Position numbers and translations under genes: made by a program
Shown here: one piece after another, positions 46,001 to 49,000 of the stretch
How the letters are laid out: each line of letters begins with the position of its first letter
How positions within the stretch are numbered: position 1 is the first letter of the stretch
Assembly: GCA_965153355.1 (NCBI GenBank)
Contig: OZ231126.1
Location: 9,858,001 to 9,922,000, forward strand
Length of the DNA stretch: 64,000 nucleotides
Direction of reading: 5' to 3'
DNA from: Flaccisagitta enflata
Taxonomy: Eukaryota
Notes under the pieces: generated by a model
What the model saw: the letters and a program-made list of their open reading frames with translations, nothing else
Told to the model about the DNA's origin: nothing
Databases searched by the model: none

Positions 46001-49000
46001 ACACGGATCACGATGACTTCGCTGAGGAAGAGGAGTTTGCCGGTTTCATGCTCGAAGGAGAAGGAGACCTCTACTTCCTCATGGGCATGGACGATTACGA
46101 TGCAACTACTGCAGTGGAACTCATTGCCATAGATGAGAGTAGAAAGAAGCTTGCCGAGGCTCAGGATGGAGACCCCACAATCCGTGAGGTCAAACGGCTT
46201 GTCAAACTCTGTCAGACACCGACATCTGACCTCCCACTGTTCTACAAGAAAGAGTTCAAACGCTTTGCAATCAAGGACAACATCCTTTTCCGGAAGGTCA
46301 TCGACGGCCCTTCGGGTCTTCCTGTGCTCCAGGCCATCATTCCCCCAAGCCTTGTACCTGAGGTTCTCCAGGACGCTCATGGGCACAAGCTTGCAGGTCA
46401 TCCTGGCCACCAGAAGATGGTTGAGAAACTCCAGCGCAATGTGATATGGCCTGGCATATATCCTGACTGCAAAAGAGTGGTCAAAAAGTGCCACTCCTGT
46501 GATCGGAATGCGGCGCAAAACCCCAAACCGAAGACAGAACTCCAATCAATGAATCCTAGCTACGTGTTCGAACATGTCTGTTGTGACCTCATCACTCTAA
46601 CTCCATCACAAGGCTACAATTACGTCTGTGTCTTCATGGATGTATTTTCTAAGCACGTCGCCTGTTACAAGATGAGGGATAAATCCACCAAAAGCTACGC
46701 TCGCGCACTGGAGGATTACGTCACTCATCACGGTTGCCCGCAAAAGCTGTCCAGTGATAACGGGCCGGAGTTTTGCAGCGACCTTGTCAATGCTCTGACC
46801 CAGATAATGGGCATCAAGAAACGGACGTCTGTAGTCTACAGACCCCAATCGCAGGGGAATGTAGAGCGCTGGAACCGAACGCTTATCAAGGATCTAAGGA
46901 CGCGCCTTGACAAGTCCGGCGACGCCTGGCCAGATCATCTCAATTACGTCGCCATGGCCTACAATGCAACGCCGACTTCAAGAACAGGTCAAACCCCAAA
47001 CATGGTTTTCTACGGACGAGAGTTGCCTATTCCTACCTTCACCGACTTCTCAGTCAACACGCTCAGGGAGAAGACCGTTCAAGAATATGTCAAGAAGGCG
47101 AAGGAGTGCGTCCGGTTGGTACATGATGCGGTGCGATCAGAAAGCAAGAAGCGTAGCGACAAAGTTGCCGAAGCTTACAACAAGAAAGCCAAGCACAAGC
47201 CACTCACCAAAGGGGAGCTTGTCTTCTATGAAGAGATCCCTCAGAACCTGAACAAACTGTCAATACCATTTACGGGTCCTGTAGAAGTCACTGAGCGACA
47301 TCGTAACGCTCAGGGAGGGCCAGGCACCACCTACACTTTGAAGTTTGAAGGGGGTGAGACGATGAAGAGGAACTATGAGCAACTCAAGCGAGCCCAAGCT
47401 GATTACACAGGGCCCATCTCCAAGCAGGAGCGCCCCTTGAAACGTGCTCCTAAAATCCCCCTCTTCGTTGGTGTTGTGTCATCCTCCGATGAAGAGGATA
47501 CGCCTGCAGCGGATGTGGCGCCTGTGTCATCGAGGACCAGGCGCGGGGTTGCAGCAAGAGTAGCAGCTCAGGCGGTACCTTCTTCTTTGCAGCCTTTGCA
47601 AACCCCAGCGTTGCTGCCACCGACGGCGCAACCCTCAGTGTCGCTTGCGACACCGCCGATGGCAATGGCTCAGAACTATTCTCCAACAGCCACTTCTGCG
47701 ACACCTGCACCATTCGTCACTTCTCACTTTGTCTCAAATACGCTCATTTCTGCGCAAGTAGCCGCTCCACCAATCCAGGCTGTGTGGGGTAACTCTTTAT
47801 CACCAGTGAACTCCTTCATTGACCAAACAGCGCCCTCCTCTGGTGAAGAAGCAGCAAATCTCACCAATGTAACGTTGTGGAATGGTCTCAACTCTCTCTC
47901 TTGGGATCCGGCGTTTGAGCCATTGAGTTCCCTCAATCACAATGTGGGTTCCGAAGTGCCTGTATCACCCACTGGCAATGAATCTCTGCCCGGGGGATTT
48001 CCCCAAATTCAACTGGACCCAGATGGTCTCCCACCTATCCATCCAGCATCCAGAAATACTAACAGCCATGGCTCCACACCCGACGCTACTCAGAACACGG
48101 TAGTTCAAGCCTCTCCGGCCCAATCCGCAAACACAGGCTCCTCACCAGAGGCCACACTTGAATCCTCACCACACTCGTCGCCGCAAACCTCTGATCAATT
48201 TCACACCGCCGGTACCCAAATTGTAAGCGCGTCAGCAGTGGCAGACGAAAGCAATGGTAGCTTTAATGTCTCATCCTTCGAGGAAGCCCTGGACATGGCT
48301 GAAGAGGAAATTGAATTACGGCAAAATGTTGGTTGTCGCGGCATCGATGTGATTCTTTACAGGGAGTATGAATACCGGCGTGATCGAGCTTCTGAAGGCC
48401 GTAAAATGGCTCAAAAATGGGTGTGTCGTTATGCCAACAAAACCAAATGTAAGGGCAAATTGAAGCTGAATGTGCGCGATCTCAACAATTTCATTGAGGG
48501 TGCGATTATCAGCGATTTGTGTGATCACAATCATGAGCCCTACAATCGAGTTAACAACTTGGGCTTAGCGGAAGTTACTGAAATCAAAACTGACGAGTCC
48601 GAAGTTGAGGGGGCTGCCGCCGACGACGCCCCCACTGGTAACATTTCCTCTGATGGCACCTTCAGCAACTCGGAAGGAGATTCCTCCTCAAGTGCTCAAT
48701 GTATCGCGGAAGAAGATCCTTCATTTCAATTCGATGGTAGTCTCCGTGAAACTAGAGCTCATTCATCTCCAGTTGCCAGTCGCCACCAGATGACGTTGAA
48801 TCTCTCTGATGTATCCACGCCATTGACCACCCCTGACTCATGGCAATGCGTGGGTGTCTCCCAAACCGACGACATGGCGTTTGCAGGAATTATGCACGTG
48901 CGACGTCGAAGACGGGATGACGACCAAAATCCTGCTGAAGATCCGTAAATTCCCCATTACGAGCATCCAACTCATTTTCGTGTGTCAACTACCCATTATT

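What the first reader, a model, noticed from the sequence alone, without database searches (positions are those of the whole stretch)
47440..48948. Integrase ends in a long disordered tether and a FLYWCH-like zinc finger
Seen: after the GPY/F-like motif, Pol continues through about 300 aa of S/P/A/T-rich sequence to [34 protein letters not shown], still in frame. Known: W-x-C-x(5-7)-C...H-x-H is the FLYWCH/WRKY-GCM1 fold of Mutator-like transposases, whereas gypsy integrases typically end with GPY/F plus or minus a chromodomain. Inference: a DNA-binding module captured from a DNA transposon could direct integration-site choice or bind the LTR.
Basis: partly seen in the sequence, partly recalled or inferred. 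Interest (0 to 1): 0.75.

Follow-up and report, generated by a model that had tools for sequence, protein, structure and literature searches.

The report
Retrotransposon finger kept by gutted copies
A family of jumping genes in an animal genome carries an extra DNA-binding zinc finger on its integration enzyme, and shortened copies that have lost all other genes keep just this finger as an intact gene, which suggests it helps the element run its own expression and not only choose where to land.

Summary
Confirmed, and wider than reported. Pol of a 15-kb Ty3/gypsy element continues past a GPY/F-like motif through about 280 disordered residues into a FLYWCH (WRKY-GCM1 fold) finger, then 137 more residues. 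The finger marks one clade: 28 of the 28 closest integrases in genome G000 and 20 of the 21 closest public Pols have it. Sister lineages share the long tail and a DEDDy-exonuclease ORF3 but lack the finger.

New here: of 43 exact primer-binding-site matches, 26 have the finger 1.6-3.6 kb downstream, too close to hold gag and pol. Fetched examples are young non-autonomous LTR elements with the finger as their only long gene, at the gag position, under purifying selection (dN/dS 0.06-0.31). A pure integrase tether does not explain that, and 24 insertion sites show no target motif.

Best reading (0.45, inferred): an element-encoded DNA-binding regulator of its own LTR or leader. Rivals: integration tether (0.25), own-genome adaptor (0.2), helper inhibitor (0.1). 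A Mutator donor is plausible but not shown. No binding or expression was tested. Ten literature searches found no such fusion; the scan's notes had none.

The parts
26922..26925 (+). 4-bp target-site duplication, left (ACAA)
26926..27147 (+). 5' LTR, first part
   Evidence: 97% to 3' LTR
27148..35358 (.). 8.2-kb insertion splitting the 5' LTR, flanked by a 4-bp duplication; content not studied
35359..35568 (+). 5' LTR, second part; the two parts differ from the 3' LTR at 8 of 428 sites
35571..35584 (+). primer-binding site; 43 exact copies in G000; priming tRNA not identified
35585..36534 (+). leader; first 710 nt are 73-81% identical to the leaders of non-autonomous finger elements (likely packaging signal, inferred)
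36535..41302 (.). nested element with long terminal inverted repeats and 5-bp duplication, between leader and gag; absent from the sister copy on C7
41306..43612 (+). gag (first ATG 41324); weak Retrotrans_gag match, no zinc knuckle seen
43600..43606 (+). GGGAAAC slippery heptamer in the gag-pol overlap; -1 frameshift inferred (downstream hairpin not better than shuffles)
43477..47436 (+). pol core: protease, RT, RNase H, integrase (H2C2, DDE core), GPY/F-like motif at 47266-47388
47437..48279 (+). disordered S/P/A/T-rich linker with conserved short motifs (acidic patch 47479, basic patch 47527, LxWD 47896)
48280..48552 (+). FLYWCH / WRKY-GCM1 zinc finger (W 48418; C 48424, 48448; H 48526, 48532) with a preceding acidic segment
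48553..48948 (+). disordered C-terminal tail; motif at 48841-48912 is shared with one group of stand-alone finger genes
48949..50768 (+). 1.8-kb stretch without long ORF between pol and ORF3
50769..54467 (+). ORF3, 1232 aa, with a DEDDy 3'-5' exonuclease-like domain at 51081-51761
54690..54706 (+). polypurine tract
54707..55134 (+). 3' LTR, 428 bp
55135..55138 (+). 4-bp target-site duplication, right (ACAA)

Best explanation
SHOWN: one clade of animal Ty3/gypsy elements has a FLYWCH finger inside an older disordered Pol tail, and non-autonomous LTR derivatives carry that part of the tail as their only long gene, starting about where gag starts in the helpers, with the finger under purifying selection. 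INFERRED: the finger plus its disordered flanks works like a small transcription regulator that the element encodes for itself. It binds a site in the LTR or leader of its own lineage and promotes expression or resists silencing. Helpers make it in small amounts as the end of frameshifted Pol, attached to integrase or cut free by the protease. The derivatives borrow gag and pol through a helper-like leader, but their LTRs have drifted from the helpers', so they gain from making their own finger from the gag slot.
For: Finger identity. Of 43 exact PBS matches, 9 are helpers, 26 have the finger 1.6-3.6 kb downstream, 8 have no finger hit. 12 of 12 fetched stretches around stand-alone fingers gave no gag, pol or ORF3 hit; 9 showed LTR pairs 97-100% identical. 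Finger dN/dS is 0.06-0.31 in 17 of 19 derivative pairs (2 saturated; pairs not independent) against 0.33-1.02 for their N-terminal parts. Derivative leaders are 79-89% identical to a specific helper while LTRs are only about 60-63%. A 711-aa derivative ORF aligns with a helper Pol tail beyond the finger (38%, E 2e-40), which fixes the direction Pol to stand-alone. An LxWD motif lies in the linker of 8 of 8 finger-bearing and 0 of 23 finger-less G000 Pols; its likeness to activation domains is recalled. An 8-mer is kept in 8 of 12 LTRs, at most 5 in 200 shuffles. Precedent: a Mutator transposase activates its cognate copies (bioRxiv 10.64898/2026.08.24.746577, abstract and passages).
Against: No binding, expression or activation was measured. 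No motif is common to all finger-bearing LTRs: the 8-mer is missing from 4 more distant families and may be a core promoter element inherited by descent. In helpers the finger sits after GPY/F on a flexible linker, the place of known targeting domains. Finger-less sisters often end in another candidate DNA-binding motif (15 of 23), which suits a swappable tether slot. A trans-acting protein is harder to select in a non-autonomous element than a cis-acting one. LTRs of finger-less families were not compared.
Confidence: 0.45

Rival explanations
1. Integration tether. The finger on its linker binds host DNA, chromatin or a host protein and steers the integrase. Stand-alone copies are then decoys or act through the helper's complex.
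For: In frame with integrase after the GPY/F-like motif in 27 of 67 finger hits that lie in ORFs of 1600 aa or more. Precedents: chromodomain and CopiaMBD (PMC6673714, passages), Ty1 integrase C-terminal segment (PMC10050235, abstract). Finger-less sisters end in an R-x-x-x-G-R/K-F motif whose only two PDB hits are NF-YA/HapB DNA-binding segments (E 0.9 and 1.2, not significant). 4 of 24 sites lie within 30 nt of a microsatellite against 4.9% background (post hoc p 0.03).
Against: 24 sites show no positional base bias (best p 0.03, 0.76 after correction) and no shared 6-8-mer above control. Helpers already supply a finger-bearing integrase, so a tether does not explain selection on integrase-less copies. 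Power is low, and targeting through chromatin or protein would leave no motif.
Confidence: 0.25
2. Own-genome adaptor. As Mutator fingers bind their own element ends, this finger binds the element's own RNA or cDNA ends. In derivatives the protein, made from the gag slot, links the derivative genome to helper Gag or integrase through its short conserved motifs, a benefit in cis.
For: A cis benefit explains selection in non-autonomous copies most simply. The start codon lies 870-1080 nt after the LTR, like gag at 914-1055 nt in five helpers. One derivative group keeps a C-terminal motif of the helper tail. Derivatives outnumber helpers about 3 to 1 among PBS matches.
Against: LTR termini are nearly the same in helpers and derivatives, so a private finger is not needed to read them. 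The C-terminal motif is absent from the second derivative group. RNA binding by this fold is not something I found in the papers read.
Confidence: 0.2
3. Helper inhibitor or copy-number control. The stand-alone finger competes with the helper's finger and dampens helper activity, to the benefit of host or derivative.
For: A DNA-binding domain without its catalytic partner is a usual dominant-negative design (general knowledge). The finger is conserved while flanks drift.
Against: Derivatives need helper proteins and are recently mobile, with 97-100% LTR identity and intact duplications at dispersed sites; they do not look like fixed host genes.
Confidence: 0.1

Closest known systems
Ty3/gypsy integrases with an appended reader domain (chromoviruses); CopiaMBD (PMC6673714, passages read)
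   Same: An extra binding domain in frame with integrase, kept across a clade, proposed to guide insertion.
   Different: The domain is a FLYWCH finger about 300 residues beyond GPY/F and is followed by 137 residues. No target bias was found here. It is also kept as a stand-alone gene in pol-less derivatives, which the passages read do not report for those systems.
FLYWCH/WRKY-GCM1 DNA-binding domains of Mutator-like transposases and FLYWCH1/mod(mdg4) (PMC1702500, PMC6446971, passages read)
   Same: W-x-C, C, H-x-H pattern and four-stranded fold; top structural match is human FLYWCH1 finger 5 (2rpr), then WRKY domains.
   Different: Single finger, C-terminal to a retroviral-type integrase, not N-terminal to a MULE DDE domain; longer C-to-H spacer (25); forms its own sequence group.
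Transposon-encoded self-regulators: VANC of VANDAL, TnpA of Spm, AtMu1 transposase (PMC6446971 passage; bioRxiv 10.64898/2026.08.24.746577 abstract and passages)
   Same: A DNA-binding domain with disordered flanks, split off from a catalytic protein; proposed here to act on cognate copies.
   Different: Those are plant DNA transposons with measured activity; this is an animal LTR retrotransposon with no activity measured, and the split-off gene travels in non-autonomous elements.
Bdelloid rotifer Vesta/Juno LTR elements with DEDDy ORF3 (PMC5408684, parts 1-2 of 5 read)
   Same: gag, pol and a downstream ORF3 with a DEDDy-type exonuclease.
   Different: No dUTPase match or gag knuckle seen here, ORF3 is about 1200 aa, and the parts read report no domain beyond GPY/F. 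Relationship of the RTs was not tested.

Membership tests
Ty3/gypsy LTR retrotransposon | Pol order PR-RT-RH-IN | tested here: met
Ty3/gypsy LTR retrotransposon | LTR pair, PBS, PPT, 4-5 bp target duplication | tested here: met
Ty3/gypsy LTR retrotransposon | Placement in a named clade by RT phylogeny with references | not tested
   No named references in the tree; nearest named Pol is 31% identical
FLYWCH zinc finger (PF04500) | W two residues before the first C; C, C, H-x-H ligands | tested here: met
   W, first C and both H invariant in 19 of 19; second C in at least 90%
FLYWCH zinc finger (PF04500) | Pfam score above the curated cut-off | tested here: inconclusive
   Window copy 22.3 against 23.6 bits; several relatives pass
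FLYWCH zinc finger (PF04500) | WRKY-GCM1 fold | tested here: met
   Predicted model pLDDT 84; Foldseek top 2rpr (E 5e-3, prob 1.00, TM 0.54); VIA Z 7.8, rmsd 3.6, 74 aligned, next WRKY Z 4.9
FLYWCH zinc finger (PF04500) | Zinc binding and sequence-specific DNA binding | not testable with these tools
   Needs protein
Mutator-derived capture | Finger nests within or is sister to MULE transposase fingers | tested here: inconclusive
   Not sister to the two G000 MULE-like fingers in a 78-column tree; no alignment to one of them; deep support is weak
Chromovirus | Chromodomain after GPY/F | tested here: not met
   No chromo match in Pol at E up to 1
Target-specific LTR retrotransposon | Shared motif or feature at insertion sites | tested here: inconclusive
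   None at 24 sites; low power
Non-autonomous LTR derivative (G000 stand-alone copies) | LTRs, PBS and PPT of a helper, no gag or pol, recent insertion | tested here: met
VANC/TnpA-like self-regulator | Binds and activates cognate copies | not testable with these tools
   No assay; motif search inconclusive
DEDDy 3'-5' exonuclease (ORF3) | ExoI D-x-E and ExoIII Y-x3-D; profile match | tested here: met
   D, E, Y, D invariant in 26 of 26 aligned (chosen for these motifs); profile hits WRN at E 2e-6 and EXD2 at 5e-4; 5 of 26 match PF01612, the window's copy does not. ExoII acid not invariant.

The most novel reading that the evidence does not exclude
An animal LTR-retrotransposon lineage encodes its own WRKY-fold transcription regulator at the end of Pol, and parasitic non-autonomous elements have at least twice extracted it into a stand-alone gene in the gag slot, so that each family carries a finger matched to its own LTR: a self-activation or anti-silencing system in retrotransposons, and a direct route from an integrase tail to a mobile transcription-factor gene.
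Probability: 0.35. Interest if true: 0.85.

Novelty: new variant of a known kind. Interest (0 to 1): 0.7.

Why it matters
Domains appended to retrotransposon integrases are usually read as targeting devices, mostly from their position. Here evolution has separated the domain from the integrase, apparently more than once, and kept it under selection. That makes the question 'tether or regulator' testable with small proteins and matched LTRs from several families. It also reverses the usual direction (DNA transposon domain to host factor) by showing a WRKY-fold finger living in an LTR element and spreading in dozens of copies as a transcription-factor-like gene.

Tried and rejected
Chance or single-copy read-through: rejected; 67 finger hits, 1 with an internal stop, one clade of 13 among 36 Pols, support 0.999 (one frameshifted Pol, L095, left out). 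Stand-alone fingers as host genes or Mutator transposases: rejected for the fetched ones, which lie between LTRs. Tail captured together with the finger: unlikely, since 23 of 23 finger-less Pols have 391-774 residues after the integrase core against 657-747 in finger-bearing ones. Derivative N-termini from gag: no blastp link for 7 ORFs of the two shorter groups. Two origins of derivatives from the finger alone: single origin not rejected (AU p 0.465, 5000 replicates, 8 derivative rows); the case for two rests on leader, LTR and flanking motifs. Fold-back of the C-terminal motif onto the finger: not predicted, pLDDT about 50. Expression: no RNA holder listed; 0 reads of run X2 (6% read) lay on 35359-55200 and X1 covered only the nested repeat, so no test. 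A word search with the finger region found only this same protein. A first site analysis mis-picked five LTR ends and was redone. Frameshift hairpin not better than shuffles. LTRs of finger-less families were not obtained, so a finger-linked LTR motif remains untested.

Full report
1. Observation. [quoted passage not shown] After a GPY/F-like motif (47266-47388) come 281 residues that are 48% S/P/A/T, against 24% in the core, and then the quoted finger, C1650-x7-C1658-x25-H1684-x-H1686, with W two residues before the first C; 137 residues follow. Pfam FLYWCH matches at E 1.5e-4, just under its cut-off; 18 of 19 aligned relatives match, best E 3e-8. The model from that alignment has pLDDT 84. 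Its top match is human FLYWCH1 finger 5 in Foldseek (E 5e-3, probability 1.00) and in VIA-align (Z 7.8, rmsd 3.6, 74 aligned; next a WRKY domain at 4.9). The three Atlas clusters shown are FLYWCH (0.93-0.94). The identity is secure; zinc and DNA binding are inferred from the family.

2. The element. It spans 26926-55134 with a 4-bp target duplication; the LTRs differ at 8 of 428 sites. This copy is interrupted by 8.2 kb inside the 5' LTR and 4.8 kb between leader and gag; a sister copy on C7 has a near-identical Pol and no leader insertion. A third ORF inside the LTRs (50769-54467) has a DEDDy exonuclease-like domain: the motif pair was found in 29 of 35 stretches of finger-bearing and finger-less relatives, and their profile hits WRN at E 2e-6 and EXD2 at 5e-4. 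DEDDy ORF3s are known from rotifer LTR elements (PMC5408684, parts 1-2 of 5 read).

3. The finger marks a clade. G000 has 67 finger hits of 68 candidates scored, 27 in ORFs of 1600 aa or more and 1 with a stop. Of 150 integrase hits scored (572 candidates) I compared 35: all 28 at 61% identity or more, plus 7 chosen for lying near finger hits. All 28, and 34 of the 35, have a finger 1.2-2.0 kb downstream. In a tree of 36 Pols the 13 finger-bearing ones form one clade (0.999). The 23 others also have long extensions but no finger motif, so the tail is older than the finger. In public assemblies 21 of the 120 listed Pol relatives have the finger, including 20 of the top 21; 18 of the 21 are only 67-79% identical to any G000 Pol I sampled, and 6 carry a precomputed PF04500 label. 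In 7 Pol pairs the finger is 55-88% identical, the linker 37-65%, the core 73-90%.

4. The unexpected part. An exact PBS search, independent of the finger, gave 43 places: 9 helpers, 26 with a finger 1.6-3.6 kb downstream (gag plus pol take about 8 kb), 8 without a finger hit. Twelve of 12 fetched stretches around stand-alone fingers gave no hit to gag, pol or ORF3; 9 showed both LTRs, 97-100% identical, 5.4-6.9 kb apart end to end, around one ORF of 363-448 aa. A further group has ORFs of 658-711 aa. Each group tracks a helper in its leader (86%, 89%, 79-81%) while its LTR is about 60-63% identical to helper LTRs. The ORFs start 870-1080 nt after the LTR, like gag. They derive from Pol: one aligns with a helper tail over 250 residues (E 2e-40), and another group keeps the helper's C-terminal motif. 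The finger in these ORFs has dN/dS 0.06-0.31 in 17 of 19 pairs, 2 saturated; the N-terminal parts give 0.33-1.02 (Nei-Gojobori, pairs not independent). Two origins are suggested by leader, LTR and motifs; the finger tree alone does not reject one (p 0.465).

5. Target sites. Of 26 elements with both ends, 24 have a duplication (22 of 4 bp, 2 of 5 bp). There is no base bias by position and no shared 6-8-mer above control. Four of 24 lie next to a microsatellite against 4.9% background (post hoc p 0.03). The sample cannot exclude targeting through chromatin or protein.

6. Donor. G000 holds Mutator-like transposase pieces with N-terminal FLYWCH (weak MULE match E 0.005). They are distant from the retro-finger. 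A profile search of 1.84 billion representatives gave 64 hits. The strong ones I inspected are pieces of the same tails or derivative-like ORFs; most weak ones are multi-finger proteins; none of 62 scanned shows a MULE domain. One ancient capture is likely; the donor is unknown.

7. Mechanism. A tether for integrase is the natural reading from position and has precedents (PMC6673714 passages; PMC10050235 abstract). One result favours it: 15 of 23 finger-less Pols, and 0 of 8 finger-bearing ones tested, end in R-x-x-x-G-R/K-F, whose only two PDB hits are NF-YA/HapB DNA-binding segments at non-significant E; I recalled that likeness before the search. But helpers already supply a finger-bearing integrase, so a tether alone does not explain selection on integrase-less copies. 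A regulator of the own LTR or leader explains both forms: the derivatives keep the helper's leader, have drifted LTRs, and put a finger with proline-rich or acidic-aromatic disordered flanks in the gag slot. A Mutator transposase with this fold class activates cognate copies (bioRxiv 10.64898/2026.08.24.746577, abstract and passages). An 8-mer shared by 8 of 12 LTRs is a candidate site, but 4 finger-bearing families lack it. I give the regulator 0.45, tether 0.25, own-genome adaptor 0.2, inhibitor 0.1. The roles can coexist. No step of any mechanism was measured, and the RNA lay was no test.

8. Novelty. Ten full-text searches listed no paper whose title, abstract start or the passages I read describes a FLYWCH finger in an LTR-retrotransposon Pol or a non-autonomous LTR element carrying only such a gene. 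Passages of PMC1702500, PMC10027918, PMC6446971, PMC9289625 and bioRxiv 10.64898/2026.02.11.705288, and part 1 of 4 of PMC6338049, did not mention it. Subscription journals, Repbase reports and supplements were not searched; the supplement of PMC1702500 and closed bioRxiv supplements could list such architectures. The scan's own notes held nothing alike. Verdict: real, a new variant of a known kind, interest 0.7.

Noticed in passing
window 50769-54467; L060-L089: ORF3 with a WRN/EXD2-like DEDDy exonuclease domain is shared by the whole clade, with or without the finger; a second, degenerate exonuclease-like stretch may lie near residues 880-1020 (by eye only).
   Followed up: partly
L060-L075, last 40 residues of Pol: Finger-less sister Pols end in R-x-x-x-G-R/K-F (15 of 23; 16 of 37 long public ones), weakly like the NF-YA/HapB DNA-binding segment; not seen in 8 finger-bearing Pols tested.
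   Followed up: partly
window 4272-9686: A 5.4-kb LTR element (469-bp LTRs, 99.8%) with one 417-aa ORF that looks gag-like by eye and has a 24-bp tandem repeat; no pol. A second kind of non-autonomous element.
   Followed up: no
window 19788-24596: Direct repeats of 825 bp (99.9%) 4 kb apart around short ORFs; another probable non-autonomous element.
   Followed up: no
window 25605-26925 and 55135-55590: The element sits inside an ORF of at least 440 codons with no Pfam family above cut-off; an open frame continues beyond the 3' LTR.
   Followed up: partly
window 54707-55134 against L049/L050 (C7): The C7 copy has a near-identical Pol and 96% leader but an LTR only 82% and ORF3 72% identical to the window's: recombination between subfamilies 3' of pol.
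   Followed up: no
L131-L150 (G000:C6:41.10-41.19 Mb): A cluster of at least 11 FLYWCH-like ORFs on both strands, interleaved with a second repeated ORF; a host gene array or nested repeats.
   Followed up: no
L126-L129: Mutator-like transposase pieces with N-terminal FLYWCH, at least two families.
   Followed up: partly
L031/L032 (G000:C2:50.336-50.347 Mb): Two non-autonomous finger elements in tandem sharing a middle LTR.
   Followed up: no
window 59179-61107 (-): ORF with a Pfam TBP-binding domain (E 5e-17), probably part of a host TAF1-like gene (name recalled).
   Followed up: no
L100/L101 and L113/L115: Two derivative insertions have 5-bp duplications where the other 22 have 4 bp.
   Followed up: no
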